From IMG/VR virus record IMGVR_UViG_2671180360_000002: a DNA stretch of 23,431 nucleotides. One strand, given 5' to 3'. The notes beneath the pieces were generated by a model, which was given only the letters and a program-made list of their open reading frames with translations, searched no databases and was not told the DNA's origin. Below, piece by piece: positions 403 to 23,154 of this stretch (position 1 is the first letter of the stretch; each line of letters starts with the position of its first letter). The translations under genes were made by a program, and so were the position numbers. This stretch comes from a virus (Duplodnaviria; Heunggongvirae; Uroviricota; Caudoviricetes).

Positions 403-1716
403 TCATTCTCCTGTTCTGCCTGTATCACTGCCCACTTCATCCAGCCCCTTAACATCCTGCCACGGCCCGTCACCAAACCTGACCTGCAAATGCCGAAAAA
501 AACCCTGAACCCGTGTGGTATCTTTGGGGTCAAGAAAGGTCAGTCCGGTGATGAGTGCGCCATCTGTATCCGGGAACCAGCCATGGCTGTTTGTCTCAAT
601 AATGTTTCCCGGCCCCAGACGGAACCGTATTTGCGTCTCCCCCGGGTCGCCCTTCGGCCCCTGAGGTCCGGTTGCCCCCACCGGGCCAGCCGCACCTGTT
701 TCTCCTTTCGGTCCCTGTGGGCCAGCCGGGCCTGCCGCACCGGTATCTCCCTTTGGACCCTGTGGACCTGCATTTCCCGTCAGACCGGTCTCTCCCCGCT
801 CTCCCCTGTCGCCTTTCGGTCCCTGTGGTCCTGCCGGACCAGCATCACCTGCCGGTCCCCGTTCGCCGGTTGCCCCGACAGGGCCGGTGTCACCACGCTC
901 TCCCTTATCCCCCTTCGGCCCCTGAGGGCCAGCGGGCCCCTGTTCCCCCTTTGGCCCGGGAGGTCCCACCACGGTGGGGATTCGGTTTACGGCGTCTTCC
1001 GCCGCTATCCTGCTTTGTTCCGCTGACTGTGCGCTTTCTGCTGACTCCCGGGCTTTTTCTGCTGCGGTCGTTGCATCCCTGGCTGCATTACCGGCTGCAC
1101 TTTCTGCCGTCTTTCTTGACAATTCAGCATCTGCTGCACTTTGTGATGACTCACTGGCTTTTTGAGCGGCCGCAGAAGCCGAGGACGAGGACGCATCCTC
1201 TGACTGCTTTGCTGAGGCTGCACTTTCTGCCGCCTGCCGGGCTGACTCCGATGCCTCCCCTGCTGAAGTGTCAGCATTTGCCGCGCTCTCTTCTGCCTGA
1301 CTGGCTGATATGCCGGCATTCCTCGCTGACGTCTCCGCCTCTCCGGCATTCTTCTTCGCCTCCTCTGCGTTACGCACCACCTCTTCCACCATCAGTTCAA
1401 AACGGCGCAGTGCCTCAGGACGGGCATCATCCTCCGTCATGGCACCGAGAAAATCATTCAGCGTACCGGGTCGGGAATCTTCATACACGGTGATGGTCCC
1501 GGCATGTGAAGGCGGAAAACCTTCAACCAGCAGGGTGACGCTGTACTGACCATGCTCAACATCCATGCTGTAACGTCCGGCTTCATCCGGATTTTCAGAG
1601 GCCACCGTGTTCACCACCACCGTGCTGCTGGTTCGTCTGGCCTTCAGCACAATGGTGCAGTTCTGTACTGGTTTTCCTGTGCCATCTTTAAGCACGCCAG
1701 AAATTTTTACTGTCAT
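403..1716 (-). CDS. stf: Side tail fibre protein (Stf-like) with a collagen-like Gly-X-Y repeat domain
   Basis: The N-terminus [22 protein letters not shown]... closely matches the lambda Stf N-terminus as recalled. An Ala/Ser/Glu-rich low-complexity segment is followed by about 37 uninterrupted G-X-Y triplets (residues about 251-360, nt about 637-966) and a short C-terminal domain. ATG at 1716-1714. Position downstream of lom matches lambda. Confidence 0.8.
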
Positions 1717-5500: not shown

Positions 5501-6014
5501 GGTTATCCACCACCACCGAGGCCAGATACTGCGAGGTGGTTTTGCCCTTAATGGTGATGTCTTTTTCCGTCACCCAGCCACCATTACGCTGTATCTGAAC
5601 CAGCAGGCGGACTTCCGACGGATTCCGGTCCCCCTTTGAGGTGGTTTCCACCAGTGCCTGCACACCGAAGGTAAAGCGCAGACGGTCGATGTTTGCCGAC
5701 GTGATGGTCCGGGTGATCGGCGTGTCATATTTCACTTCCGTACCCAGCACCGTCTCGGAGCCGGAGGATTCAAATCCCTCCGGCGGTGTCTGCTCCTGCT
5801 CACCTGCCCGGAACACCACCGTGACACCGGATATATTGGTATTCCCCTCACTGTCCAGCACCGGCGTACTGTTCAGCAGCACGCTTTTTAATCCGTCCAC
5901 CGGACCTTCAACCGGCCCTTCGCTGATGGCATCGATCACACTCAGCAGCTGCGTGGACTTCAGGTTGTCCCTCGCTTCGCGCGGGGTATGCCCCTTACTG
6001 CTTCCTTTACCCAT
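2535..6014 (-). CDS. J: Tail tip / central tail fibre host-specificity protein J
   Basis: The 1159-aa ORF begins [54 protein letters not shown]..., matching the lambda gpJ N-terminus as recalled, with long collinear similarity. ATG at 6014-6012. Position after I and before lom matches lambda. Confidence 0.95.
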
Positions 6015-6026
6015 TCCTCACACTCC

Positions 6027-6056
6027 ATAAACAACAAAGCCGCCCAAAAGGCGGCT
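6027..6056 (-). terminator. Putative terminator after the lipoprotein moron
   Basis: On the minus strand a hairpin AGCCGCC-ttttg-GGCGGCT (6038-6056) is followed by the T-rich run TTGTTGTTTAT. It lies between the lipoprotein stop (6081) and the J start (6014). Confidence 0.4.
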
Positions 6057-6080
6057 CATGAGTTACGACAGGATTAACTA

Positions 6081-6419
6081 TTATTTACATGCATTAACAC
6101 TATCAGCAAAAATTTTTGGCGTTAATGCTGGTACACGTTCATAAAGAGTAAAACTACTGCCATTTCCTGCTTTTTTGATATCAAGCACAACATCATATCC
6201 CCCCATAGCCTGTGGAACTAAAAGGCTTACCCCATTCTCAATAGGAAGGGATGTTATAGGTGTTCCATTACCAGCCCATTGTCTGGATATGCAGCCTGAC
6301 AATTCATCAATATTTTTTAATGAATTACCTTCCATTACAGGTTTTCCGGATTTTACGTAATCCAAAGATTTACATCCTGTTAAGGCAATAATCGTGCAGA
6401 ATAAAATCGTTTTGTTCAT
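6081..6419 (-). CDS. Putative lipoprotein moron inserted between tail genes I and J
   Basis: ATG at 6419-6417 gives MNKTILFCTIIALTGCKSLDYV..., a classic lipoprotein signal peptide with lipobox LTGC. The mature protein is about 96 aa with two further Cys. The locus is visibly AT-rich compared with the flanking genes (judged by eye). Lambda has only about 60 nt between I and J. The six-frame track start (6431) is a TTG; the in-frame ATG is preferred. Confidence 0.6.
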   Translation of the reverse strand: MNKTILFCTIIALTGCKSLDYVKSGKPVMEGNSLKNIDELSGCISRQWAGNGTPITSLPIENGVSLLVPQAMGGYDVVLDIKKAGNGSSFTLYERVPALTPKIFADSVNACK

Positions 6420-6458
6420 ATAGCTAACCAATAGAATAATTATCAGTGTTCGATATAA

Positions 6459-6486
6459 ATATTAAATCAGTTAGAACATGAGTAAA
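6459..6486 (-). promoter_or_regulatory. Candidate sigma70-type promoter for the lipoprotein moron
   Basis: On the minus strand TTTACT (6486-6481), a 16-nt spacer, then TAATAT (6464-6459), about 40 nt upstream of the lipoprotein ATG. Judged by eye only. Confidence 0.25.
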
Positions 6487-6492
6487 ATAATA

Positions 6493-7134
6493 TTACCGCC
6501 CAATTACCACAACCTGACCACCATCCCCTTCATCTGCCGTGCTGATCTCCTGAGATGCCACACGTGACCCCACGCGCATTTCACCGTACAGAACAGGCAG
6601 GACATTGCCCTGGGCAACCATGTTATCCAGTGAGGAGAAATAGGTGTTCTGTTTGCCGTTATCCGTTGTCTGTGTACGGGGAGTTCTGGCTTTCGGTGCC
6701 AGCATCTGCGCCACACCACCAAGCGTCATCGCCGCACCCATTGAAAAGAGAATGTCACTGAAAGCGATACTGATCCCCGGCATCCAGATTGCCGTAGCAA
6801 TCAACGCCGCACCCAGCACCGCCTGAAACACACCGCCACTTTTTGCTCCCGCAAGACGCGGCACGATGTGGATCACGGCACCATTTGCCAGCGGCTCATT
6901 AAGACGGGATGATAATTCGGTTTCTCCTGCATCCCGCCCGGCAATCCGTACCTGATACCAGCCATCGCTCAGTTTCTGACGAAACGCCGGGAGCTGTGTG
7001 GCCAGTGCCCGGATGGCTTCAGCCCCCGTTTTCACACGAAGGTCGATGCGGCGGCCAAATCGTTGCAAATCCCCGTAAAGGCAGATGCGTGCCATGCCCG
7101 GTGACGCCAGAGGGAGTGTGTGCGTCGCTGCCAT
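6493..7134 (-). CDS. I: Tail tip assembly protein I
   Basis: The 213-aa translation MAATHTLPLASPGMARICLYGDLQRFGRRIDLRVKTGAEAIRALATQLPAFRQKLSDGWYQVRIAGRD... matches lambda gpI as recalled. ATG at 7134-7132. It overlaps the end of K by 103 nt, as in lambda. Confidence 0.93.
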   Translation of the reverse strand: MAATHTLPLASPGMARICLYGDLQRFGRRIDLRVKTGAEAIRALATQLPAFRQKLSDGWYQVRIAGRDAGETELSSRLNEPLANGAVIHIVPRLAGAKSGGVFQAVLGAALIATAIWMPGISIAFSDILFSMGAAMTLGGVAQMLAPKARTPRTQTTDNGKQNTYFSSLDNMVAQGNVLPVLYGEMRVGSRVASQEISTADEGDGGQVVVIGR

Positions 7135-7775
7135 TTGTCGGTATACCTCTCTCGTTTGCTCAGTTGTTCAGGAATATGGTGCAGCAGCTCGCCATCACCA
7201 CAGTAAATAGCGGCATGATTCGGCACCGATGAACCAAAGCAGCACAGCAGCACATCGCCCGGCTGCGCCGCTGACAACGGCACCTGATACAGCCCCGTTG
7301 CCTCCAGATTATCCAGATAGAGATTCTGACCGTGACGCCACCAGTCATCCTCACGATGAAAGTCCGGCATCTCAATCCCCGCCAGATGGTAAGCATCCCG
7401 GAACAGTGTGTAACAGTCCGTCACCCCGTACTCAAAGCGCCGCCCGGTGAGATGCGGCACACAGCGGAACTTGTGAATCGCCCCCCGGCAGACCAGCCAC
7501 CACGGCAAATCGCTCTGCACCTGTAGCCGCCGGTCAGCCTCACTCAGCCAGGGCAGACCACCGGGGTGGCTGTGGACCAGCGCCACAATCTCACCCTGCA
7601 TCTCTGCCTGCAGCCAGTCCTCCGGAGCCATCCGGAAATAATCCTCCGGCTCACCGGAAATATTCACGCCGGGAAAATATCTTTCCCCCTCCGGCGTTCT
7701 CACCACGAAGCCGCACGACTCCGCTGGCGCACATCGCCGGGCGTGCGCCAGAATCGCTGATTCTGTCTCTGTCAT
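7032..7775 (-). CDS. K: Tail tip assembly protein K (MPN/JAMM plus NlpC/P60 domains)
   Basis: ATG at 7775-7773, 5 nt after the L stop. A JAMM-like motif HSHPGGLPWLSEAD and an NlpC/P60-like Cys...His segment are present. Position between L and I matches lambda. The true start could be an internal Met. Confidence 0.88.
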   Translation of the reverse strand: MTETESAILAHARRCAPAESCGFVVRTPEGERYFPGVNISGEPEDYFRMAPEDWLQAEMQGEIVALVHSHPGGLPWLSEADRRLQVQSDLPWWLVCRGAIHKFRCVPHLTGRRFEYGVTDCYTLFRDAYHLAGIEMPDFHREDDWWRHGQNLYLDNLEATGLYQVPLSAAQPGDVLLCCFGSSVPNHAAIYCGDGELLHHIPEQLSKRERYTDKWQRRTHSLWRHRAWHASAFTGICNDLAAASTFV

Positions 7776-7780
7776 GGGAT

Positions 7781-8479
7781 TTACTGCGAAAGTTTGTTAA
7801 TGGAAAGGAAGCCGCCAAAGTTGCCGACGTTATTGCGAAACTTACAACCGCTCAGGCATTTGCTGCATTTATCCTTCGTGATATCGGACGTTGGCTGGTC
7901 ATATTCATCCGCGACCGCCGGACCGTGATAACCGCACTCATCGCCGCGATAGGTCCAGGTGCAGGTGTTGGCCAGCATGATACGTCCCGGAAAAACAGCG
8001 CCGTCCGTTTCCGTCGGCGTGGACAGTACAAAGGAGGCACTGACCGCGCTCAGTTCGCTGCACTGCTCGATGCGCCAGCGGCTGATCACCTCCTGCTCCG
8101 GATCGGCGTCGCTGTTTCCGTTGACGAAATTCACCGCATCCAGAAAACGGGCGTAAACCTTACGCCTGACCACCGTTCCGCCGACCAGACTCTGCATATC
8201 TTCCGCCATGCCGGTGACCATACCGTACAGGTTAGAAACCGTCAGCGTGGGGCGCGTACTGGTGCCTTTGCCATTCAGTTCAAAACCACTCCCCTGAATG
8301 GGATACGGCTGATACTGTCGCCCCTGCCAGGTGACCGGCTCACCTTTTTCGTTCTGCTCATTACAGAAAAAATAACGTTCTCCACCGACCTCTGTCAGGT
8401 CGATTTCCCAGAGCACCACGCTGGCAGACTGCTCCGCACGGGTGCATTCATTCAGTGTTTCCTGTCGGATATCCTGCAT
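7781..8479 (-). CDS. L: Minor tail protein L
   Basis: The 232-aa translation MQDIRQETLNECTRAEQSASVVLWEIDLTEVGGERYFFCNEQNEKGEPVTWQGRQYQPYPIQGSGFELNGKG... matches lambda gpL as recalled. Its ATG overlaps the M stop (TGATG). Confidence 0.95.
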   Translation of the reverse strand: MQDIRQETLNECTRAEQSASVVLWEIDLTEVGGERYFFCNEQNEKGEPVTWQGRQYQPYPIQGSGFELNGKGTSTRPTLTVSNLYGMVTGMAEDMQSLVGGTVVRRKVYARFLDAVNFVNGNSDADPEQEVISRWRIEQCSELSAVSASFVLSTPTETDGAVFPGRIMLANTCTWTYRGDECGYHGPAVADEYDQPTSDITKDKCSKCLSGCKFRNNVGNFGGFLSINKLSQ

Positions 8480-13446: not shown

Positions 13447-14076
13447 TCATTTTCTTTTCAGCACCAGGCGTAACTGATGCGTCATGGCTTTCATCATCTG
13501 CGCCGGTAATTTTTCCCGGTACATCCGGTCCCGTTCACGTTCAAAAGTTTCTGCCAGCGGTCCGGCAGTCGGAATTTTCACCACTTCAATCGGCAGACGG
13601 TAGCGTTTCGGCCTCCCTTTGCTGTCAGCACCGGTGGACGATGGTGCCCACGGCATACGCTGCATCACATGCCAGCGTCCGTTAGCCAGCCGGGTGATAA
13701 AGGCGTCCGGGATCCGTCTTTTCCCCACAATCAGCACACTGCCGCCCCCTTTCTTGACCGAACGCTCGCCTTTCTTTCGTCGCTTTCTGCGGGAAAGCCG
13801 CACGCTGGCCGTCCCCAGTTTTATGGCGGGCAGATTACCGGTGTTGATGATGACCTTCGCATAAATCCTGTCTGCGCTAGCCCGTTGCAGGCGGATACGC
13901 TCACGGATGAGACGGCGCGGAACCGCCAGCTCCCTGGCAACCGAAGAGGCCGTTTTCGCGATGATGGACTCCGCCACACGGTTAAGTGTCGTGGCGGCAG
14001 CCCGGGGAACGGCACGGCGGTCAATTGCATCCAGATTTTTCATGGCCTGCGCCAGACCTTTTATTGCCATACTCAT
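13447..14076 (-). CDS. Z: Tail completion protein Z
   Basis: The translation MSMAIKGLAQAMKNLDAIDRRAVPRAAATTLNRVAES...SRRKRRKKGERSVKKGGGSVLIVGKRRIPDAFITRLANGRWHVMQR... matches lambda gpZ as recalled. Its start overlaps the upstream stop (ATGA). Confidence 0.93.
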   Translation of the reverse strand: MSMAIKGLAQAMKNLDAIDRRAVPRAAATTLNRVAESIIAKTASSVARELAVPRRLIRERIRLQRASADRIYAKVIINTGNLPAIKLGTASVRLSRRKRRKKGERSVKKGGGSVLIVGKRRIPDAFITRLANGRWHVMQRMPWAPSSTGADSKGRPKRYRLPIEVVKIPTAGPLAETFERERDRMYREKLPAQMMKAMTHQLRLVLKRK

Positions 14077-14354
14077 TCCTGTTCGACAAAAATCCGGGGT
14101 TTACCGTTGTACGTGTCATAACGGGTCACCGTCAGTGTGCGCCCCGCAAACACAACAACATCATGACGGGCCGGACGGTACCGGGCTGAAAACACCACCA
14201 GTGACAACTGGCTGCCCGAAAGCGCCCCCATCTCCGCGGACTCTTCCTCCGGCATCACGTCATACACGACGCCGTTAATCTCCGCCTGTTTGCCCATCAC
14301 CCGAACGGTCGCCCCGTCCATCCGGCAACACATTCGCGTAAACAGATCAGACAT
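14073..14354 (-). CDS. Small head-tail joining / head completion protein (FII-position, not lambda FII)
   Basis: A 93-aa ORF whose ATG (14354-14352) overlaps the upstream stop and whose stop overlaps the Z start, so it is translationally coupled within the structural operon. It occupies the lambda FII position but the sequence is not lambda-like. Confidence 0.6.
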   Translation of the reverse strand: MSDLFTRMCCRMDGATVRVMGKQAEINGVVYDVMPEEESAEMGALSGSQLSLVVFSARYRPARHDVVVFAGRTLTVTRYDTYNGKPRIFVEQE

Positions 14355-14673
14355 TGATTTTTACCGCCACAGTGGCGCTGTTTGCAGGAGCATTTTCCCA
14401 GGCTACCCCCGCGGCCACCGCACCCTCTGCAGCCAGCTGCACAACCCCGTCCTTCAGATAAACCACCGCGCCGGACTGAATGTCGTCAGCAGACTGTTTG
14501 GGCAGAAGGAACACGCCTTCGGCAAAACCGTCACCGGCATCACCGGCAGGAATATCTGTAATGGCCACGGCCACCATACTGCCGACCACCACCGCAGCAC
14601 CGCTCAGGATGGTCTGATCTCCGGCATTCACCAGTTCAATGGTGGTACCGTCCTGTACAAAATTTTTCGCCAT
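14347..14673 (-). CDS. Small head-module protein following the capsid gene (DUF2190-like; possible decoration or connector protein)
   Basis: A 108-aa Gly/Ala/Val-rich ORF, MAKNFVQDGTTIELVNAGDQ..., with ATG at 14673-14671 preceded by GGAGAAA. It sits directly after the major capsid gene. The product assignment is tentative and from memory. Confidence 0.6.
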   Translation of the reverse strand: MAKNFVQDGTTIELVNAGDQTILSGAAVVVGSMVAVAITDIPAGDAGDGFAEGVFLLPKQSADDIQSGAVVYLKDGVVQLAAEGAVAAGVAWENAPANSATVAVKINV

Positions 14674-14717
14674 AATGCTGTTTCTCCGGACAGCCCCTGT
14701 GGGGCTGTTTTTCAGGC

Positions 14718-14738
14718 ATAAAAAAAGCCCTTTCGGGC
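14718..14738 (-). terminator. Short attenuator-like terminator after the major capsid gene
   Basis: On the minus strand GCCC-gaaa-GGGC (14727-14738) is followed by TTTTTTTA (plus-strand A-run 14720-14726). A second hairpin ACAGCCCC/GGGGCTGT lies at 14690-14708. Both sit between the capsid stop (14761) and the next start (14673). Confidence 0.4.
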
Positions 14739-14760
14739 AGTGATTGTGATAACTCGGTTA

Positions 14761-16740
14761 TCAGGCCACCGACGAACGCACCAGCCCGCGCCAGTCAAGT
14801 GGTGCCACTCCGGCATCAATACGGATTTTTGTGGCAATGCCGTCAGTGGTGAAACCTTCCTGCTGATCAATGTATGGCGTGTCCACACCATCCAGCCAGG
14901 CCACTTCAATGGTGTCAGTGCCCTGTGCCGCCGCCAGATACCAGGTTTTCGGATCTGCCGCATCAAGACGCGCTTCTGCAATCACCTCAGCAAAGTTCTG
15001 GATGGGGTTAATGACACCGGCGTTTGCATCCGCCCCTTTCACACTGGCCGATTTGATGGTCTGGTTCGCCACCGTCTCCAGTGCCACCGGTACCAGCATA
15101 AAGGCCGGACGGATATTCAGGGCGCGATCGCCTTCTTTCTGCAGGCGCATCATCTGACGGGCCGCATCCAGTCCGGAAACGGAAATCCCACCGGTGGCAA
15201 TATTTTTGTGATCGGCATGGAACAGCGCCTTACCGTCTGACAGTTTCGGGTTATCCGTCAGCACCTTGTAAACCAGGTCACCAATCGTTGCCTTCGCCGC
15301 ACGCCCCATCTTCATCGGCACGTCCACCAGCATATTCAGATCATCATTGATAATGGCCTGGCGGGTGATGGAGAAAATCTCCCCGTAAGTGGCCAGTGCA
15401 ATGGTCTCCTTGCGATCTGAGGTGGTGATGTATTTATACTCCGCCCCCTCACGAACCTGGCGCAGAGAACCAAAACCGCCCATCCCCACGCGATACGCTG
15501 TTTTGAAGTCTGACAGGCGTCCCTTACGGGTCCACTTCTGGAAGGTTTCTTCTGATTCCTCCCAGCCCTGGATCAGCCCCTTGTTCGACACATCCAGCAG
15601 AATATTGCCAAAATCAGAGGTGCTGTGCGTCAGCGCCAGCCCGACCATCTGCATGGGGTTATAACTGGCCACCCCAATACCGCGCTCCGTCAGTGACATG
15701 CGAGCCCATTCACGCAGGGTCATCCCGTTATAGGCGTTATCCTTCTCGACATTTTCAAATCCGGCACGGGCCAGCATCGCCTGGCGGATCCCGTCCCCCA
15801 CAAAATTGCCGTTTCCGGCATAAATATGAGCCGGTGTATTTTTGTTGGTCGGCGAGGACTCCTTGCCCATTTCATTCAGCAGACGTTCACGGGCCATTTC
15901 CAGCGAACAGTCAGGATCAGCCACGCACTGTGCCTGAAGCGTCTGATAGCGACCGCCGAACATGGCAAACAGATCGTTAATGCCTGACATGCGGGCTTTC
16001 TGTTCTGCCATAACGCGGGCGCGAATGGTCGCCTCATCAGACACTGCCGGTACCGGTGATGGTTCTGTTACCGCCGGTGCAGGGATTGTCACTGTGGTAT
16101 CACGCGGGGCACTGTTGTATGGCTGCGTGATCATATTTCGGATGGATTCCGGCATCTTTTTAAATTCCTCTGTACGTTTTGACTGAATACATGCCATTGC
16201 CTTAACGGCTGGCGTCACCTGGTCTGCAAATCCGTGTGCCAGACACTCGGCACCGGACATCCAGGTCTCATCCGCCAGCATGGCGGCAATTTCATCGGTA
16301 GTTTTTCCGGTTTTCTGCGCATATACCGGCACCATAACCGACTCAAGTTTGTCCAGACGTTCGGCATAAGTGCGCATTTTCTCCGCATCACCACCGCTGA
16401 TCCCCCAGGGTTTATGGATCATCATGAAGGCATTTTCCGGCATAATGACCGTGTCACCGGCCATCGCAATCAGGGATGCCATCGAGGCGGCAACGCCATC
16501 CACATACACGGTAATGGCCGCACCGTGATTTTTCAGGGCATTAAAAATGGCGATGCCTTCAAAGACATCGCCACCCGGTGAGTTGATGTGGAGATTAATG
16601 TGGGTGATATCACCCAGGGCATTCATATCGCTGACAAACTGCTTCGCGGTAACTCCCCAGAAACCAATCTCGTCATAAATATAAATATCCGCCTCACCCT
16701 GACCACCCGCCTGCATCCTGAACCAGGATTTATTCTTCAT
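14761..16740 (-). CDS. Prohead protease (ClpP-like) / scaffold / major capsid protein fusion
   Basis: ATG at 16740-16738 gives MKNKSWFRMQAGGQGEADIYIYDEIGFWGV... The N-terminal domain carries a ClpP-type serine motif (GVAASMASLIAMAG). A central Pro/Ala/Glu-rich linker precedes a C-terminal domain of about 300 aa with capsid-like character, all in one 659-aa frame. The track ORF (to 16932) extends upstream into the portal gene, so the internal ATG is preferred. Confidence 0.85.
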   Translation of the reverse strand: MKNKSWFRMQAGGQGEADIYIYDEIGFWGVTAKQFVSDMNALGDITHINLHINSPGGDVFEGIAIFNALKNHGAAITVYVDGVAASMASLIAMAGDTVIMPENAFMMIHKPWGISGGDAEKMRTYAERLDKLESVMVPVYAQKTGKTTDEIAAMLADETWMSGAECLAHGFADQVTPAVKAMACIQSKRTEEFKKMPESIRNMITQPYNSAPRDTTVTIPAPAVTEPSPVPAVSDEATIRARVMAEQKARMSGINDLFAMFGGRYQTLQAQCVADPDCSLEMARERLLNEMGKESSPTNKNTPAHIYAGNGNFVGDGIRQAMLARAGFENVEKDNAYNGMTLREWARMSLTERGIGVASYNPMQMVGLALTHSTSDFGNILLDVSNKGLIQGWEESEETFQKWTRKGRLSDFKTAYRVGMGGFGSLRQVREGAEYKYITTSDRKETIALATYGEIFSITRQAIINDDLNMLVDVPMKMGRAAKATIGDLVYKVLTDNPKLSDGKALFHADHKNIATGGISVSGLDAARQMMRLQKEGDRALNIRPAFMLVPVALETVANQTIKSASVKGADANAGVINPIQNFAEVIAEARLDAADPKTWYLAAAQGTDTIEVAWLDGVDTPYIDQQEGFTTDGIATKIRIDAGVAPLDWRGLVRSSVA

Positions 16741-18232
16741 GCTGGCTGTCGGTGGCCTGCTGACGCTGTTGTTCAGTTCCGGCACTGTTGCCTCCTTTGT
16801 CGTTGACGGGGTCAGTATCAAAGACCAGCCCCAGTCTGCTGTTTTCATCAATTTCAGCCTTGCGGCGACGTTTGACCTCATCCGGATTGCGCCCGCCGGC
16901 ACGCACCCAGTCAGATTCTGTCGCTGCACCACCCCGGATCTGAATTCTCCAGGCTTCAGCTTCCTTAACCGGGTCGATCCACGGCATCACCGGACCGGAA
17001 TACGTCGCGTTATATAGCGTTTTCATCTCCACATCCGCCGGAATTTTCAGCAGACCTGCCGCAACCACCATATTCAGCCATGTCCGGTACACCGGACGGG
17101 TTACCGCGCCAATAAAACAGTCCTGCAGGATCAGGTAACCATCCGTGGACTCGACCAGCTCCTGCCGCTGGGCACTGTAGGTGCCGTTATAGTTACGCGC
17201 CGCACTGGAAAAACTCAGACGACTGCCCGCTGCCACTGCACGCAACTGGCCGTTGCGGAAAGTTTCAAGGTTGGGATTGGGACGGTCTGATTTGACCATG
17301 CCGATATCCTCGCCCTTGCGCAAATCGTCATAAATAATACCCGGGGTGATATGGACTTCCCGGTCGGTTTCTTTGATCCCCGGCTCTTCATAGTCCTGCC
17401 CGTCACCTTTACGGATATACAGTCCCAGCGCCGCGGCAATACGCGCCGCAGTGAGTTCCGCATCCTCATACTCCTTAAGGGCACTGATCCGCATCAGCAC
17501 CCCCGATAACATGGATGAGCCTCGCGTCTGATGCAGACGACGAGTGAACTTCAGGTGGATCATTTTTCCGGCAGCGATTTCTTTCGTATCACTCTGCCGG
17601 CCGCTGACCGGATAATTTTTATAAACCAGATATTTTTTCGGTCTTCCCCACTCATCAAGAAAAACCCCCTGATTCAGTCCGGCGGATTCATCAGTGCGCA
17701 TGGGAACAAAATCCGGCTCCATCGCCTCAAGCCAGAATGGCACTCCCGCCGTCCGTTCCAGACCGTTTCCCGCACCACTGACCATCTGCGCAAACACTTC
17801 ACCATCCCGCAGCCAGGTCCGCAGCAGTAAACGTTCAAGCACGGGACGGGTATACTGCCCTGTCACATCCGGACTCACGGACCACTCAGCCCACAACCGG
17901 CGGATATCCGCAGCCAGCTCTGCCGCCATTTCCCCGTTTTTTCGTAATGGCTGAGGCTCCACAATAATTCCCCTGGCACCAATCACCCGCTCTTCCAGCT
18001 TGTCAAACACACCAATCACCAGGTCATGATTGATATCCAGAAAACGGGCCTGCTCCCGCAGGGAAACCGCACCGTATTTACTGAGCTGATCAGCAGAGCG
18101 ATTTTCCCGCCGGGCTTTATGTGTCCGGGTCGGTTTCACCGCCTCATAGGCCATGATTAACGCCCTTGAACGCAGTCTGGCTGCTTTCCAGCCGGGGGAA
18201 AACACGCCTATCACATCATCAATAATTGCCAT
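16730..18232 (-). CDS. Portal protein
   Basis: A 500-aa ORF between W and the protease gene. Its ATG (18232-18230) overlaps the W stop (TAATG). Size and position fit a lambda-family portal; the C-terminus is acidic and Gln-rich. Confidence 0.88.
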   Translation of the reverse strand: MAIIDDVIGVFSPGWKAARLRSRALIMAYEAVKPTRTHKARRENRSADQLSKYGAVSLREQARFLDINHDLVIGVFDKLEERVIGARGIIVEPQPLRKNGEMAAELAADIRRLWAEWSVSPDVTGQYTRPVLERLLLRTWLRDGEVFAQMVSGAGNGLERTAGVPFWLEAMEPDFVPMRTDESAGLNQGVFLDEWGRPKKYLVYKNYPVSGRQSDTKEIAAGKMIHLKFTRRLHQTRGSSMLSGVLMRISALKEYEDAELTAARIAAALGLYIRKGDGQDYEEPGIKETDREVHITPGIIYDDLRKGEDIGMVKSDRPNPNLETFRNGQLRAVAAGSRLSFSSAARNYNGTYSAQRQELVESTDGYLILQDCFIGAVTRPVYRTWLNMVVAAGLLKIPADVEMKTLYNATYSGPVMPWIDPVKEAEAWRIQIRGGAATESDWVRAGGRNPDEVKRRRKAEIDENSRLGLVFDTDPVNDKGGNSAGTEQQRQQATDSQHEE

Positions 18233-18468: not shown

Positions 18469-20564
18469 GGATTATCTTCCGCACGCTCCGTCCGCAGTTT
18501 TTTCTTCCGGCGACGGCGTTTTTCTGCCCCGGCCGTCAGTTCCGGGGATACCGTTTCACCAGAACGCTCCTGCGGGAAGACGAGCCACGTTTCCCGCTGT
18601 GCCCAGTCCGGTGCGGAGGGCCAGCGGATCTTTTCGTAACCATGCAGAACGGCAAGCGCATCCGCATAAACCAGCAGGTCAAACGCCTCGTTAGCTCCCC
18701 TGCCCGGTTTTCGCCATTTTCCGTCACTGCCGCGCTCTTCATAGGTCAGCTCATCGTAAAACCATCGCCCCAGCCAGTCGGGAAAGTGGATATAGTTCGG
18801 CCCTGGTGTGTCACGCCACAGGGCATTATTTACACGGTCCTTAAACGCATCCGTCTGAACCAGCCACAGCGCGACATCGCCACTGGCTCTGGCACGGCGG
18901 GCACTTCTGCCGGTATTATCCGGGAAGGTACGGTTAATCAGCCTGTCACGGCGAAGTCCATCCCCCTTGAACAGAAACACCCTGTTGCCCAGTCCGTCAC
19001 TCCGGCAACGACGCCAGAAACGATAGGCGTTATCTGTCACCCCGGCTTCCCCTCCCGTATCCACCGCCATGGCCATCAGACGCATGCGCACATCCGGATC
19101 AGAAGCCAGCGGCCATGTTTTATGGAACACATCCGTCAGCAACAAATCCCAGTCCTCCGGATATGCCGCCGGATCAACCGGCAGACTTTCACCGTTGGGA
19201 CTGCAGCGCAGTGAATGCCGGATGTTATAGCGATCAACAATCCAGCGTTCCCCCTGCTCTCCGTATCCGGTGATCTGCACAACAAAACGGCGATTTTTAC
19301 CGCCCTGTACGTCAACCGTTGCCTCAATAAAACGCACACCATCCGGCACAGATCGCCGGGGAAACGGCTCGGCACGCTGTTCAAGCAGTTCACTTTTACG
19401 CTGTTCCGTGGCTGAACGGGGCAGATAGGGGCGTCCGATATCGGTGTTCACCACCGCTTTCAGGGTCTCTTCACTGCCGGTTCGCTCATACTCTTCTTCT
19501 GCCGCCAGCAGTTTAAAAATCAGTTGTTCCCAGGTCTGAAACGCCGCAGCCGGCCCCTCCATCCAGAATGACGCAATCCGGGAATTTCGTGGCGTTCCGG
19601 TGATACTGCCGTCCGCCACCGCCCGTTCACCTTCACGAAGCCAGATCCCTTTGTTATTCAGTTCGCGTTTCTGCTCAGGGGCAATCAGCCCGCGACAATG
19701 CGGACACATCAGACGGGCAGCCTGACCGGCAGCCACAAAATCCGGGTTATTCCGGTATCCGGTCATGTTATCCATCACCGGCTGAAAATATTCCCCGCAG
19801 TGCGGACACGGCCAGTACCACCGGCGGCGGTCTCCCCGGTTATACAGTGACAGGATCCCCGTTGTTGGCGGTGCCTCATGTGCGCCGCCACAGCGCCATT
19901 TGGTGTCAGTGATATCCCGCCCCGGCGAACTCTCGACCAGGGTCATCCCCGAGGACATAAAGGTGGTGGTACGCTTTGATGCCAGGGTGAAGGCATCCCC
20001 TTCCCCGTCCACGTTTTCAGGGAAACGGTCATAATCCGTCAGCGCCACACGACGGTAATCCGAAGAAGAAAATACAGTGATCGACGGCCAGCCAATCTTC
20101 AGGAAGGAGCCGTCAAGAAACATTTTATCGTGGACGTTGTTGTCATTACGGGAAGGACTGAGGCGCTTGCTGACCTCCGGACTGTGGCGAAACGTTCTGG
20201 AAAGACGCGTTCTGGAATGCTCACGCGCCTTCGTCTCAGTCATCTGCACCACCAGCATATCCGCCGGATCACAGATGATGCCGTACACAATCCAGCCATC
20301 AATCAGCCCTTCGGTTTTCCCGGTTCGCGCAGGTCCCACAAACACCACCGCGTCATATTCACGGGCTGATAATGTATTAATGGGGTCAATCATATAGGGC
20401 GTCAACGATGACTCCCACGGACCGGAAGTATTGGCTCCCCGTGGTACCCGCATATAACGCCTGATGGCTTCCGCTACTGGTAACCGGCTGGGTGGGCGAA
20501 ACAGCGAGGCCACTTCGCGCCAGATATCGGATGCGCGGCTATGGCTCTCGTTCACCTGATTCAC
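18441..20564 (-). CDS. Terminase large subunit (GpA family)
   Basis: A 707-aa ORF. It starts at GTG 20564-20562, the first start codon after in-frame stops, overlapping the small-subunit stop (ATGTGA). A Walker-A-like motif VFVGPARTGKTE is present. Position after the small terminase gene fits. Confidence 0.9.
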   Translation of the reverse strand: MNQVNESHSRASDIWREVASLFRPPSRLPVAEAIRRYMRVPRGANTSGPWESSLTPYMIDPINTLSAREYDAVVFVGPARTGKTEGLIDGWIVYGIICDPADMLVVQMTETKAREHSRTRLSRTFRHSPEVSKRLSPSRNDNNVHDKMFLDGSFLKIGWPSITVFSSSDYRRVALTDYDRFPENVDGEGDAFTLASKRTTTFMSSGMTLVESSPGRDITDTKWRCGGAHEAPPTTGILSLYNRGDRRRWYWPCPHCGEYFQPVMDNMTGYRNNPDFVAAGQAARLMCPHCRGLIAPEQKRELNNKGIWLREGERAVADGSITGTPRNSRIASFWMEGPAAAFQTWEQLIFKLLAAEEEYERTGSEETLKAVVNTDIGRPYLPRSATEQRKSELLEQRAEPFPRRSVPDGVRFIEATVDVQGGKNRRFVVQITGYGEQGERWIVDRYNIRHSLRCSPNGESLPVDPAAYPEDWDLLLTDVFHKTWPLASDPDVRMRLMAMAVDTGGEAGVTDNAYRFWRRCRSDGLGNRVFLFKGDGLRRDRLINRTFPDNTGRSARRARASGDVALWLVQTDAFKDRVNNALWRDTPGPNYIHFPDWLGRWFYDELTYEERGSDGKWRKPGRGANEAFDLLVYADALAVLHGYEKIRWPSAPDWAQRETWLVFPQERSGETVSPELTAGAEKRRRRKKKLRTERAEDNPWITSGGWL

Positions 20565-21037
20565 ATATCGGCCTCATCACAACAGTCAATGACTGCCTTT
20601 TCCAGTGTATCGCGGATCTCATCAACCACAATCTGTACTTCATTCAGTTGTGATGCGGTCCACCCCCTGTCCCTCTCCAGCCGGTCAGGCCAGGTTTCCA
20701 GTACCTGAACTATCGCTTTCACCACGACAGAAAAGGACCGCCTGACATCACTGACTGGCACAAGCTGAACAGTTTCATGCTGAAATTTAAGACGCTCGCG
20801 CTCGGACTGATACCATGCCTTCCGATCATGTGGGTTCATCTCTTCATCTTCGGAAGCCGGTGGTTTTTCCAGCAACGAAATAATCAAATCCGTCAGGAGA
20901 TACATTTTTTTCTTTTCATTACTGCCTGGTGCAAGAGGAACATCCGCCATTCTGGCGGCAACAGTCTGCCGGTGCAGACCTGAAAGGGCTGCCAGTTGAT
21001 TAATATTTAACTTCATATTTTTCAGCTCGCCGTCCAT
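20561..21037 (-). CDS. Terminase small subunit (Nu1-like, HTH DNA-binding)
   Basis: A 158-aa ORF with ATG at 21037 preceded by GGAGGG and a 6-nt spacer. The N-terminal segment NINQLAALSGLHRQTVAARMA looks like a helix-turn-helix. It lies immediately upstream of the large terminase gene and about 200 bp downstream of the putative cosN. Confidence 0.8.
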   Translation of the reverse strand: MDGELKNMKLNINQLAALSGLHRQTVAARMADVPLAPGSNEKKKMYLLTDLIISLLEKPPASEDEEMNPHDRKAWYQSERERLKFQHETVQLVPVSDVRRSFSVVVKAIVQVLETWPDRLERDRGWTASQLNEVQIVVDEIRDTLEKAVIDCCDEADM

Positions 21038-21039
21038 TC

Positions 21040-21300
21040 ACATCCCTCCACATAAACCGCTGAACAAAAGTGGCTCTTTTTTTGTAAAGAAATGCCGCCA
21101 TATAAAGATGTCGAACAAAAATCAACCACAATCATCATCTTTTTAATGTTAAACACATTAAAAACAACAAGTTATGCTAATGATGATGATGACGATAAAA
21201 TCACAAAAATGCGCCTTTTTCCGCGCCGTCCGCCCCGTGTTCAGGCCCACCCCACCAGGAGGACCCGCAAAAATGATAATGGTTATCATTTTCAATGTAG
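21040..21300 (-). other. Putative cos region (cosN-like G-rich motif, candidate terminase-binding repeats, AT-rich segment)
   Basis: A non-coding region between Rz and the small terminase gene. The minus strand reads ACGGGGCGGACGGCGCGG (plus 21221-21238), whose first nine bases match the lambda cos junction ACGGGGCGG..., about 190-200 bp upstream of the small terminase start, as in lambda. Inverted ATCATCATC / GATGATGAT copies lie at 21131-21139 and 21182-21190. Confidence 0.45.
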
Positions 21301-21489
21301 TCCGGTTTCTTCCACCATCGCACCGGACAGGCGACTATGAGGGGACAACGCCGCGCTCCGTTAACGCGGTAAACCCCGGTGTGTATCGTTTTTGATTATC
21401 CCCGCACACTCGCGCAGAGGAGTCTCCCTGTCGGGCTGCGGTCTCTGTTAATGAGGGAATACAGCGACGATACGGCGCATCAACAAAAC

Positions 21490-21957
21490 TTATTTCAGGC
21501 ACTGAGTACGGATATATTCCTGCGCCCCTTCCAGTTGCTTGTGCATCGTCATCAGCCGCTCTCTGAGGGTGAAATAATCCCGTTCAGCGGTGTCTGCCAG
21601 TCGGGGGCCGGTTGCATTATCCACGCGGGCGGTGCCGGTGGCTTCACGCACGGGACCTGGACAGGTGGCGTTGATACGCAGGCGCTTACGACCAGCGGCA
21701 ACGTCAGCGCGAAGAGTTTCATTTTCAGCTCTCGCATCGGCTAATTCCCTCGAGTATTTTGCATCGAGCGCAGCAACATCACGCTGACGCATCTGCATGT
21801 CAGTAATTGCCGCGTTCGCCAGCTTCAGTTCTCTGACATTTTTGTCGCGCTGGGCTTTGTAGGTAATGGCGTTATCACGGTAATGATTCAGCCCCAGACT
21901 AAGCGCACCACAGGCCACCAGCATGACAATAATCACCACACACAGAACACGGTTCAT
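21490..21957 (-). CDS. Rz: Rz i-spanin
   Basis: From ATG 21957-21955: [68 protein letters not shown]..., a strong match to lambda Rz as recalled. The track ORF extends upstream from a GTG; the ATG is preferred. Confidence 0.93.
21552..21737 (-). CDS. Rz1: Rz1 o-spanin (lipoprotein, embedded in Rz in the +1 frame)
   Basis: The 61-aa translation [61 protein letters not shown] has a lipobox VSAC and a Pro-rich body, matching lambda Rz1 as recalled. It is fully embedded within Rz. Confidence 0.9.
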
Positions 21958-22056
21958 ATCACCACCAACGGATTGCCCAGACCAGAACAGCAATGGCCAC
22001 AATACGAATGGCAAATGCCATTGCCCGAATAAGTTCAGCACTCATCTTTTTAAAGT

Positions 22057-22328
22057 TCACGATTTCAGCGCAATGACCAGTTTTGCCAGCCCATATAGCA
22101 TCGGAGACACAGCAATACCAACAGCCACCCACTTAATAGCAAAAGCCACCCACTTAATAGCAAAAGCCAGCGCTCTGCTGATGTCATCAGTCACTGTCAC
22201 CCCAGCAGCCCCGACGAAGACAACATCACCCAGGCGAGGGACAGAAAAAGAGCAACCAGCATTAGTGAAAATGAAATACCGACAATCACACACAGGACCT
22301 TTGCCGGCGTTATGAGTTTGTCTGACAT
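22057..22328 (-). pseudogene. Small two-TMD membrane protein gene with an apparent frameshift (43-aa N-terminal ORF plus an out-of-frame C-terminal extension)
   Basis: ATG at 22328-22326, preceded by AAGGGG, encodes MSDKLITPAKVLCVIVGISFSLMLVALFLSLAWVMLSSSGLLG, stopping at TGA 22199-22197 inside a G-run. The overlapping +1 frame continues ...VTVTDDISRALAFAIKWVAFAIKWVAVGIAVSPMLYGLAKLVIALKS to TGA 22059-22057. One extra G in the run would join them into an approximately 90-aa protein. Confidence 0.35.
22124..22170. repeat. 21-bp perfect tandem duplication (about 2.2 copies) inside the small membrane ORF
   Basis: GCCACCCACTTAATAGCAAAA occurs at 22124-22144 and again at 22145-22165, followed by a partial GCCAG. 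In the minus-strand reading frame this duplicates the heptapeptide AFAIKWV. Confidence 0.9.
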
Positions 22329-22330
22329 AG

Positions 22331-22426
22331 CTACCCCTTAATTGCCACAATTAACTGGGATACTACCCATAAAAAAGGGATGCTCCAGACCAGCAAAAAT
22401 TTCCAGTTTGGTAATTGACTAATCAT
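22331..22426 (-). CDS. Possible 31-aa hydrophobic peptide ORF
   Basis: ATG at 22426-22424, preceded by GGGAG with a 9-nt spacer, encodes MISQLPNWKFLLVWSIPFLWVVSQLIVAIKG and stops at TAG 2 nt before the next ATG. It is very short and unverified. Confidence 0.2.
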   Translation of the reverse strand: MISQLPNWKFLLVWSIPFLWVVSQLIVAIKG

Positions 22427-22493
22427 GAGTCGCAACTCCCTAATCAGTTTGCTAAAATCAATCAAGGCAGCCTCCCATAGCTTACTGCCATAA

Positions 22494-22534
22494 AAACAAA
22501 ACCCCGCTTGCTGCCAACAAACGGGGTTTTTACT
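22494..22534. terminator. Bidirectional rho-independent terminator-like hairpin downstream of the endolysin gene
   Basis: AAAACCCCG...CGGGGTTTT stem (22498-22506 pairing with 22522-22530) with T-rich tracts on both strands (plus TTTTTACTTTTATT; minus TTTTGTTTTTATGG). It lies about 90 nt after the endolysin stop. Confidence 0.5.
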
Positions 22535-22620
22535 TTTATTCACTTACGTTTCGCCAGTTCGCAGGATTTCGTGTTATCCGCCCGCGTGGCCATGCCTTAT
22601 TTTTCAGCAAAATATTCTGC

Positions 22621-23154
22621 TTATCTGTCGATACCCCAGCACGCCAGCGCGCTCTCCTGGTCACGACGGGATACCTGACCGTAGCAGTTGTTTGAACGAA
22701 TACGGCAGTCTCTGCCACCGTCCTTAATCCACCAGCGAATCGCCTCACACGCTCCCCTGCGATCACCTGCATTAATTCGTTTATAAAACGTCGACGGGAA
22801 ACACTTACCGGGACCAATGTTGTACGGACAGAATGACGCGATCCCCGCTTTCTGGGGTTCGCTCAATGGCACTTTGATGTTTTTCTCCACCCATGCCAGC
22901 GCCTTATCACGCTCAATGGCGTTGACCTGGTCGCATTTTTCCTTCGACAGTTTCATACCGGGAAAAACGGGTTTTCCATCCACCATCGTGGCCCCCCGAC
23001 AGATGGTCCAGATGCCGGAACCATCGCGGTATGCCGTAGTGTGGTTACCCTCTTTTTCATCCAGAAACTGGTCGAGAATATCAGGCGCGGGCGCACCGAC
23101 GGCAATCAGTGCCAGAACGGCAGCCGACAGGCCGTATCTGATTTTTGCGTTCAT
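22621..23154 (-). CDS. R: Endolysin, T4-lysozyme-like with N-terminal signal-anchor-release (SAR) segment
   Basis: The 177-aa translation MNAKIRYGLSAAVLALIAVGAPAPDILDQFLDEKEGNHTTAYRDGSGIWTICRGATMVDG... has a weakly hydrophobic Gly/Ala-rich N-terminus (SAR-like) followed by a lysozyme-type catalytic region (E...D...T spacing). It lies upstream of Rz/Rz1. Confidence 0.88.
   Translation of the reverse strand: MNAKIRYGLSAAVLALIAVGAPAPDILDQFLDEKEGNHTTAYRDGSGIWTICRGATMVDGKPVFPGMKLSKEKCDQVNAIERDKALAWVEKNIKVPLSEPQKAGIASFCPYNIGPGKCFPSTFYKRINAGDRRGACEAIRWWIKDGGRDCRIRSNNCYGQVSRRDQESALACWGIDR

What the first reader, a model, noticed from the sequence alone, without database searches (positions are those of the whole stretch)
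14761..16740. Single-ORF ClpP-protease/scaffold/major-capsid fusion marking a non-lambda head module
The tail genes (Z through J, lom, stf) are close to lambda, but the head and packaging genes are not. In place of lambda C/Nu3/D/E there is one 659-aa gene with a ClpP-type protease domain (GVAASMASLIAMAG), a Pro/Ala/Glu-rich linker and a capsid-like C-terminal domain, followed by two small unrelated ORFs in the FI/FII positions. The mosaic boundary lies between the 93-aa ORF and Z (about 14073), where the ATGA overlap is preserved.
Basis: partly seen in the sequence, partly recalled or inferred. Interest (0 to 1): 0.5.

Follow-up and report, generated by a model that had tools for sequence, protein, structure and literature searches.

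The report
Known protease–scaffold–capsid fusion gene (Gifsy-2 type)
The long gene is real and encodes a head-maturation protease, a scaffold-like segment and the major capsid protein as one polypeptide, but this gene type is already curated, was studied experimentally in Salmonella phage Gifsy-2, and occurs in over a third of complete E. coli genomes, so it is ordinary.

Summary
Window 14761..16740 (- strand) is one uninterrupted ORF. It has an N-terminal ClpP-fold serine protease domain, a disordered Pro/Ala/Thr-rich linker, a short helical middle domain, a second linker and a C-terminal HK97-fold capsid domain.

It is not new. It scores 995.8 bits (cut-off 475) on NCBIfam NF045540, [quoted passage not shown]. 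RefSeq E. coli genomes carry a 100% identical gene under that name. 2070 of 5426 complete E. coli genomes have a match. The whole head module is colinear with Salmonella phage Gifsy-2, whose fused "tripartite capsid gene" was characterised by Effantin et al. 2010.

- The 108-aa ORF downstream is a head decoration (cement) protein, the functional counterpart of lambda D. It is not an FI-position ORF.
- The 93-aa ORF is a homologue of Gifsy-2 STM1035 (PDB 2PP6) and probably a distant gpFII relative.
- Terminase and portal are distant lambda-family homologues.
- Z probably starts at 14070, so the ATGA overlap is doubtful.
- The fusion gene probably starts at GTG 16785, giving 674 aa.

Novelty: already known. 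Interest: low.

The parts
14761..16740 (-). Fusion gene as annotated by PGAP (659 aa): ClpP-like prohead protease / scaffold-like domain / major capsid protein
   Evidence: ORF and translation. NF045540 scores 995.8 bits against a cut-off of 475. phrog_133 matches full length. A 100% identical RefSeq gene has the same ends and carries this name.
16741..16785 (-). Probable true 5' extension of the fusion gene (15 codons; GTG start at 16785 with AGGAGG at 16796-16791), giving 674 aa
   Evidence: Sequence read. Homologues of 671-674 aa begin MPEL/MPKL at this position, and several lack a Met at the equivalent of ATG 16740. Gifsy-2 is annotated from MPEV. The start is inferred, not proven.
16201..16692 (-). 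ClpP-fold serine protease domain (residues about 17-180; catalytic Ser86, His109, Asp173)
16042..16128 (-). Disordered Pro/Ala/Thr/Val-rich linker (residues 205-233)
   Evidence: pLDDT below 50. It has the lowest conservation and the most gaps in the alignment. Composition was read directly.
15850..16035 (-). Helical middle domain (residues about 236-297; three helices), presumed scaffold / delta-domain equivalent
   Evidence: AF2 helices 236-259, 266-274 and 280-293 with pLDDT 87-92. The region is moderately conserved. The scaffolding role is inferred by analogy with Gifsy-2 and HK97.
15811..15849 (-). Second flexible linker (residues 298-310), the likeliest region for the maturation cleavage
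   Evidence: pLDDT below 50 at residues 298-300 and 302-310. The cleavage position is an inference.
14764..15810 (-). HK97-fold major capsid protein domain (residues 311-659)
14347..14673 (-). Head decoration (cement) protein, 108 aa; functional counterpart of lambda D but a different family
   Evidence: phrog_122 'head decoration' E 3e-39. PF09956 Phage_cement_2 E 5e-19. 53% identity to Gifsy-2 STM1034. It does not match lambda D or the HDPD family.
14073..14354 (-). 93-aa head-tail joining protein candidate (Gifsy-2 STM1035 family; distant gpFII-like)
   Evidence: PF13856 E 6e-14. PDB 2PP6 E 3e-13. Reciprocal weak colinear hits link it to the gpFII family: the 93-aa protein to PF05354 at E 0.012, and lambda FII to PF13856 at E 0.0028.
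16730..18232 (-). Portal protein (lambda-type portal family, 21% identical to lambda B)
   Evidence: PF05136 E 3e-80. blastp to lambda B E 5e-6. 65% identity to the Gifsy-2 portal.
13447..14070 (-). Tail completion protein Z homologue, the first lambda-like gene after the head module
   Evidence: PF06763 E 3e-56. 54% identity to lambda Z, with lambda M1 aligning to the ATG at 14070. PGAP uses the same start.

Best explanation
This is the capsid gene of a Gifsy-2/VT1-Sakai-type lambdoid prophage or phage of E. coli, and a member of the known family of 'ClpP-like prohead protease/major capsid protein fusion proteins'.

Each capsid subunit is made as one precursor of about 72-74 kDa.
- The C-terminal HK97-fold domain builds the procapsid shell on the portal. 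Gifsy-2 has T=7.
- The N-terminal ClpP-fold protease and the helical middle domain are tethered through flexible linkers. They presumably face the interior and act as the built-in scaffold, like the HK97 delta domain.

After assembly, the Ser86-His109-Asp173 protease cuts within the linkers and digests the internal parts. The cut most probably lies near residues 298-310. This leaves a mature capsid protein of about 350 residues.

The shell then expands on DNA packaging. It is stabilised by trimers of the 108-aa cement protein encoded just downstream. The 93-aa gpFII-like protein then prepares the head for joining to the lambda-like tail.

Shown here: the ORF, the domain folds, the catalytic residues, family membership and synteny with Gifsy-2. 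Inferred from Gifsy-2 and general HK97/lambda assembly knowledge: domain topology in the procapsid, self-cleavage, cleavage position, T number and decoration binding.
For: - Family models: NF045540 scores 995.8 bits against a cut-off of 475. Pfam finds CLP_protease plus Phage_capsid_4. phrog_133 matches full length.
- Identical genes: a 100% identical gene is annotated under this exact name in RefSeq E. coli. It is 99.5% identical in phage CP-1639 and in Stx2a phages.
- Gifsy-2 module, by identity: fusion 61%, portal 65%, TerL 67%, decoration 53%, STM1035 39%, all in the same order.
[quoted passage not shown] Gifsy-2 is listed as T=7 (PMC8814770).
- Catalytic residues: Ser and His are invariant in 54 homologues, and the triad aligns with ClpP structures.
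Against: Nothing contradicts family membership.

No experiment on this particular allele is available. Processing, the cleavage site and whether this prophage is still inducible are untested. The Effantin 2010 paper itself could not be read here, so its content is cited through other papers and from memory. The start codon is ambiguous (ATG 16740 or GTG 16785). The scaffold role of residues 236-297 rests only on position and predicted helicity.
Confidence: 0.95

Rival explanations
1. The long ORF is an artefact: two adjacent genes (protease and capsid) merged by a sequencing or assembly error or a recent frameshift.
For: Stand-alone ClpP-like head proteases are the commoner arrangement. 1790 phage records match the protein, but only 82 cover at least 80% of it. 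MCP-only and scaffold+MCP relatives also exist (P0136, P0162).
Against: The same continuous ORF is present at at least 80% coverage in 1825 complete E. coli genomes. It is also present in Gifsy-2. More than 100 divergent cluster representatives, at 36-60% identity, align end to end. A curated NCBIfam model exists for the fused architecture.
Confidence: 0.01
2. The gene yields two products, as lambda C/Nu3 does: the full-length protein and an internally initiated scaffold-capsid protein lacking the protease. Only a minority of subunits would then carry a protease.
For: Lambda C/Nu3 sets the precedent for nested in-frame products (annotation). One internal ATG (Met196) has an AGGA 10 nt upstream.
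Against: That is the only candidate, with a weak and badly spaced Shine-Dalgarno sequence. Met196 is not conserved in the 54-sequence alignment, whereas the neighbouring Pro197 is. No tool result supports internal initiation.
Confidence: 0.05
3. The ClpP-like domain is catalytically dead and serves only as a structural scaffold, with maturation done by a host or other phage protease.
For: None specific. No protease activity was measured here.
Against: Ser86 and His109 are invariant, and the Asp position is the consensus, across 54 homologues down to about 35% identity. The motifs align with active ClpP enzymes. No other protease gene lies in the head module.
Confidence: 0.03
4. The head/tail junction at about 14073 is a recent recombination breakpoint specific to this element: a lambda tail grafted on a foreign head.
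For: Protein similarity to lambda stops exactly between Z (54%) and the 93-aa ORF (none). The tail genes are closer to lambda than to Gifsy-2, for example H at 76% against 26% and Z at 54% against 29%.
Confidence: 0.1

Closest known systems
Salmonella phage Gifsy-2 tripartite capsid gene (STM1034.3n; Effantin et al. 2010, Virology 402:355)
   Same: It has the same three-part architecture: ClpP-like protease, a central domain of about 200 residues, and an HK97-fold capsid protein. The protein is 61% identical over the full length. The neighbours are the same: TerS, TerL, a W-like protein, the portal upstream; decoration protein, the STM1035-like protein and then lambda-like Z, U, V... downstream.
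   Different: It is a different allele (39% divergent) in an E. coli host. The tail genes here are much closer to lambda than Gifsy-2's are. No experimental data exist for this allele.
E. coli prophage/phage alleles annotated 'ClpP-like prohead protease/major capsid protein fusion protein' (NF045540), e.g. CP-1639, VT1-Sakai, Stx2a phages, ASU11
   Same: The gene is 96.5-100% identical at the nucleotide level, and the late region is colinear.
   Different: Essentially nothing. This window is another copy. In VT1-Sakai and strain FDAARGOS_1059 the module is interrupted by IS elements, whereas the window's copy is intact.
Lambda head genes C / Nu3 / D / E
   Same: The functional logic is the same: protease, scaffold, T=7 HK97-fold shell and a trimeric cementing protein. 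The genes occupy the same position between the portal and FII/Z.
   Different: No detectable sequence similarity. The lambda protease is an S49 family peptidase fused to the scaffold (C/Nu3), with a separate capsid gene E. D precedes E, whereas here the cement gene follows the capsid gene and belongs to another family (PF09956, not PF02924).
HK97 gp4 protease and gp5 (delta domain + capsid protein)
   Same: There is no separate scaffolding protein; the scaffold function is an N-terminal extension of the capsid protein that is removed by the prohead protease. The capsid domain has the HK97 fold.
   Different: The HK97 protease is a separate gene of a different fold and family. HK97 stabilises its shell by covalent cross-links and has no cement protein. 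Here the protease is ClpP-like and is part of the same polypeptide.
Mu gpT-type capsid proteins (phage Mu 9JOD; Pseudomonas phage JBD30 8RKC/8RKX)
   Same: These are the closest solved structures by sequence profile to the C-terminal domain (E 6e-13 and 2e-10). Pfam Mu-like_gpT also hits.
   Different: In those entries the capsid protein is a chain of about 300 residues without a fused protease.

Membership tests
ClpP-like prohead protease/major capsid protein fusion protein (NCBIfam NF045540; Gifsy-2-type tripartite capsid gene) | Full-length match to the curated family model above its cut-off | tested here: met
   995.8 bits against a cut-off of 475. Residues 17-657 match model positions 2-651 of 652.
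ClpP-like prohead protease/major capsid protein fusion protein (NCBIfam NF045540; Gifsy-2-type tripartite capsid gene) | Protease and capsid domains in one uninterrupted reading frame | tested here: met
   Single ORF with no stop codon. The same frame is kept in 1825 E. coli genomes and in divergent representatives.
ClpP-like prohead protease/major capsid protein fusion protein (NCBIfam NF045540; Gifsy-2-type tripartite capsid gene) | N-terminal ClpP (S14) fold with the catalytic Ser-His-Asp residues | tested here: met
ClpP-like prohead protease/major capsid protein fusion protein (NCBIfam NF045540; Gifsy-2-type tripartite capsid gene) | C-terminal HK97-fold major capsid domain | tested here: met
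ClpP-like prohead protease/major capsid protein fusion protein (NCBIfam NF045540; Gifsy-2-type tripartite capsid gene) | Central domain between flexible linkers (presumed scaffold) | tested here: met
   Predicted helices at 236-293 are flanked by low-confidence segments at 205-233 and 298-310. The conservation profile agrees. The anatomy is met; the scaffolding function is not testable here.
ClpP-like prohead protease/major capsid protein fusion protein (NCBIfam NF045540; Gifsy-2-type tripartite capsid gene) | Gene context: portal immediately upstream; decoration protein and STM1035-like protein downstream | tested here: met
   The order is colinear with Gifsy-2 STM1030-STM1037, and every protein is homologous.
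ClpP-like prohead protease/major capsid protein fusion protein (NCBIfam NF045540; Gifsy-2-type tripartite capsid gene) | Autoproteolytic maturation to a capsid protein of about 35-38 kDa in a T=7 decorated shell | not testable with these tools
   Known only for Gifsy-2, through citations. It needs virion mass spectrometry and cryo-EM.
Lambda-type head module (C/Nu3 S49 protease-scaffold, D, E) | Sequence homology to lambda C, Nu3, D and E | tested here: not met
   No blastp hit better than E 0.58 to any of them. There are no PF02924 (D) or lambda E family hits.
HK97-type head module (separate prohead protease + delta-domain capsid protein, no decoration) | Separate protease gene of the HK97 gp4 family, and no cement protein | tested here: not met
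   The protease is ClpP-like and fused. A cement protein gene is present.
Lambda gpFII (Phage_attach, PF05354), for the 93-aa ORF | Match to the family model above its gathering score | tested here: inconclusive
   16.6 bits against a cut-off of 26 (E 0.012). The hit is colinear and reciprocal: lambda FII hits PF13856 at E 0.0028, and Gifsy-2 STM1035 hits PF05354 at E 0.01. This suggests remote homology but does not prove it.

The most novel reading that the evidence does not exclude
The least ordinary reading still open has two parts.
1. Translation starts at the upstream GTG (16785). The protein would then carry a conserved N-terminal extension of about 15 residues that overlaps the portal gene by 56 nt.
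2. The two hairpins between the capsid gene and the cement gene, one followed by T7, act as a partial terminator. This would set the ratio of capsid to later transcripts.

A further open point, not specific to this window, is how a ClpP-fold domain works when tethered to hexameric and pentameric capsomers, since ClpP normally acts in heptameric rings.
Probability: 0.3. Interest if true: 0.15.

Novelty: already known. Interest (0 to 1): 0.08.

Why it matters
It matters little as a discovery, because the gene type is curated, widespread and has an experimental precedent.

Its practical value is for annotation:
- The fusion is still variously labelled 'Clp protease ClpP', 'protease/scaffold', 'Nu3' or 'head-tail preconnector protease C' in phage records. 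Automated major-capsid-protein finders can miss it. One study could not obtain an HK97-fold MCP for Gifsy-2 (PMC8814770).
- Its small neighbours carry misleading names such as 'DNA breaking-rejoining protein', 'ATP-binding sugar transporter' and 'DUF2190'.
- The module is the head of many Shiga-toxin-converting and other EHEC prophages, so correct labelling helps prophage typing.

Tried and rejected
1. Reading Effantin et al. 2010 directly: not held in the library. I used citing papers instead.
3. Single-sequence phmmer of the whole protein and of the 108-aa protein against the PDB. The first gave only ClpP hits and the second gave nothing meaningful. The C-terminal profile search was needed to reach solved capsids.
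4. Scan for internal translation starts with a Shine-Dalgarno sequence. Only Met196 turned up, weak and not conserved, so I rejected a C/Nu3-like nested product as unsupported.
5. Consensus terminator scan of 13900-17000. It did not report the hairpin+T7 after the capsid gene, because that stem has only 4 G-C pairs. Folding the intergenic RNA gave z = -1.86, not compelling.
6. Proteins that looked like alternative fusions of the protease with another C-terminal domain (P0125, P0178). These are ClpP-J tail-tip chimeras, most simply explained as deletions in decaying prophages and not as a new architecture.
7. A literature search for the NCBI product name found no dedicated study.

Full report
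OBSERVATION. All long ORFs of the window lie on the - strand. The frame containing the finding is open from 16932 to the stop at 14761. The quoted motif GVAASMASLIAMAG is at residues 82-95.

WHAT IT IS. Three independent profile libraries agree.
- Pfam finds CLP_protease at residues 30-176 (E 1.5e-36) and Phage_capsid_4 at 369-656 (E 7e-56), plus a weaker Mu-like gpT hit.
- NCBIfam NF045540, 'ClpP-like prohead protease/major capsid protein fusion protein', matches end to end at 995.8 bits against a curated cut-off of 475. NF045542, 'head maturation protease, ClpP-related', matches residues 17-175.
- PHROG 133 matches full length.

Megablast finds 100% identical genes in RefSeq E. coli chromosomes, annotated by PGAP with exactly that product name and the same ends. 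2070 of 5426 complete E. coli genomes hold a match, 1825 of them near full length, with up to 6 copies per genome. Among deposited phages the gene is 99.5% identical in CP-1639 and several Stx2a-converting phages. It is 96.5-97% identical in VT1-Sakai, ASU11 and 1720a-02. It is about 77% identical in mEp460, cdtI, Ayreon and phi458. The whole 23-kb window is colinear with VT1-Sakai and Stx2 phages at about 90% identity.

An exhaustive HMMER search finds 40,652 related cluster representatives. More than 100 of the best 150 align end to end, at identities down to about 36%. The fused architecture is therefore old and widespread.

DOMAIN TESTS. ClpP structures align over residues 43-181 with the AASMA, IHxPWG and GxxDQV motifs in register. 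These give the catalytic triad Ser86-His109-Asp173. Ser86 and His109 are invariant in an alignment of 54 homologues spanning 34-97% identity.

An AlphaFold2 model built on that alignment has mean pLDDT 84.6. It shows:
- a compact alpha/beta domain to about residue 180;
- low-confidence segments at 205-233 and 298-310;
- three confident helices between them (236-259, 266-274, 280-293);
- a large C-terminal domain with a long helix at 469-496 and an extended beta region.

PRECEDENT. Phage Gifsy-2 (NC_010393) has the same gene order: TerS, TerL, a small W-like protein, portal, a 696-aa 'Clp protease involved in capsid processing', STM1034, STM1035, then lambda-like Z, U, V, G, T, H.... Identities of the window proteins to their Gifsy-2 counterparts are: fusion 61%, portal 65%, TerL 67%, W-like 53%, TerS 35%, STM1034 53%, STM1035 39%.

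Published statements retrievable here:
[quoted passage not shown] 2010).
- Its capsid is listed as T=7 (PMC8814770).
- Head and tail modules of different origin in phi80 and Gifsy-2 are a recognised example of modular exchange (PMC6471424).

The primary paper (Virology 402:355) is not held. From memory, it describes the ClpP-like N-terminus, a central domain of about 200 residues with a possible scaffolding role, and the C-terminal capsid protein, with cryo-EM of procapsids and capsids modelled with HK97 gp5 and lambda gpD.

NEIGHBOURS AND THE 'MOSAIC BOUNDARY'. Protein identities to lambda are:
- Stf, first 160 residues only: 74%
- Lom: 42%
- J 83%, I 81%, K 96%, L 99%, M 90%
- H 76%, T 73%, G 68%, V 77%
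- the 93-aa, 108-aa and fusion proteins: nothing
- portal: 21% (E 5e-6)
- large terminase: 24% (E 1e-17)

But the decline is stepwise across the tail, and the same head-to-tail arrangement is shared by Gifsy-2 and many E. coli phages. It is an old modular junction, not a fresh breakpoint.

The portal (PF05136, lambda-family portal) and terminase (GpA_ATPase + GpA_nuclease) are distant members of the lambda families. They are not unrelated to lambda.

The 108-aa ORF (14347..14673) is a head decoration/cement protein: phrog_122 at E 3e-39 and PF09956 at E 5e-19. It is the functional counterpart of lambda D, from a different family, and sits after the capsid gene, not before it.

The 93-aa ORF (14073..14354) belongs to Pfam 'Gifsy-2' PF13856 and matches PDB 2PP6 at E 3e-13. 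It and Gifsy-2 STM1035 weakly hit the gpFII family PF05354 (E 0.012 and 0.01). Lambda FII weakly hits PF13856 (E 0.0028). All these hits are colinear. This suggests a distant gpFII-type head-tail attachment protein. No FI counterpart is present.

START CODON. Fifteen codons upstream of ATG 16740 there is an in-frame GTG (16785), preceded by AGGAGG with a 5-nt spacer. Many homologues are called from this position (MPEL.../MPKL..., 671-674 aa). Several of them have Leu or Ala where this allele has Met1. Gifsy-2 is annotated from MPEV. The real product is therefore probably 674 aa (14761..16785).

MECHANISM (shown versus inferred).
Shown:
- one frame;
- a ClpP fold with an intact triad;
- two flexible linkers bracketing a helical domain;
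- an HK97-fold C-terminal domain;
- cement and FII-like genes downstream.

Inferred from Gifsy-2, HK97 and lambda biology:
- the precursor assembles on the portal with the N-terminal parts inside;
- the tethered protease cuts the linkers and digests the internal domains;
- the shell expands during packaging;
- cement trimers bind;
- the FII-like protein permits joining to the lambda-like tail.

RIVALS.
- A sequencing artefact is excluded by conservation.
- A nested internal product has only a weak, non-conserved candidate start.
- A dead protease is unlikely given the invariant catalytic residues.

VERDICT. The finding is correct but already known: another copy of a named, very common enterobacterial prophage capsid gene. 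Interest is low.

Noticed in passing
window 16783-16796 (- strand): An in-frame GTG at 16785 has a perfect AGGAGG five bases upstream, 15 codons before the annotated ATG. Homologues start MPEL/MPKL here, and some lack the downstream Met. The fusion protein is probably 674 aa and overlaps the portal gene by 56 nt.
   Followed up: partly
window 14674-14760 (- strand): The 87-nt gap between the capsid gene and the cement gene holds two hairpins: GCCC-GAAA-GGGC followed by T7, and CAGCCCC-ACA-GGGGCTG. They might act as a partial terminator or RNA stabiliser after the most abundant structural gene. The fold z-score is only -1.86, and the consensus terminator scan did not report them.
   Followed up: partly
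window 6081-6431 (- strand), within the low-GC stretch at about 5500-7000: A 116-aa ORF (TTG start) sits between the I and J homologues, where lambda has only a 60-nt gap. GC drops to about 0.46-0.47. There is no Pfam hit. PGAP calls the equivalent gene in strain FDAARGOS_1059 a hypothetical protein. It could be a moron-type insertion.
   Followed up: partly
window 14070-14076: Z has two candidate ATGs. The one at 14076 gives the ATGA overlap with the 93-aa ORF. The one at 14070 matches lambda Z Met1, is PGAP's call and has better Shine-Dalgarno spacing.
   Followed up: yes
window 14073-14354: The 93-aa protein carries three mutually inconsistent database names: PGAP 'DNA breaking-rejoining protein', Pfam 'ATP-binding sugar transporter from pro-phage' and PHROG 'minor tail protein'. 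Reciprocal weak hits to lambda gpFII suggest it is a head-tail attachment protein.
   Followed up: partly
window 7032-7775 (- strand): The K homologue ORF is 247 aa, 48 residues longer at the N-terminus than lambda K as annotated (199 aa). It is similar in length to Gifsy-2 K (245 aa).
   Followed up: no
window 403-1716 (- strand): The side tail fibre gene shares only its first 160 residues or so with lambda Stf (74%). It then carries collagen-like repeats and a different C-terminal fibre domain (PF01391, PF06820), a typical host-range mosaic.
   Followed up: no
database proteins P0125 and P0178 (not in the window): Some database 'proteins' join the ClpP-like N-terminus of this family directly to the C-terminal tail-tip domains of J. 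They most likely come from large deletions in decaying prophages.
   Followed up: partly
L002 (NZ_CP066032.1), locus 4560-8015 and 20303-22744: In the E. coli genome with the 100% identical fusion gene, the same prophage is inactivated by IS66-family insertions in K and in the large terminase gene. The window's copy of both genes is intact.
   Followed up: no
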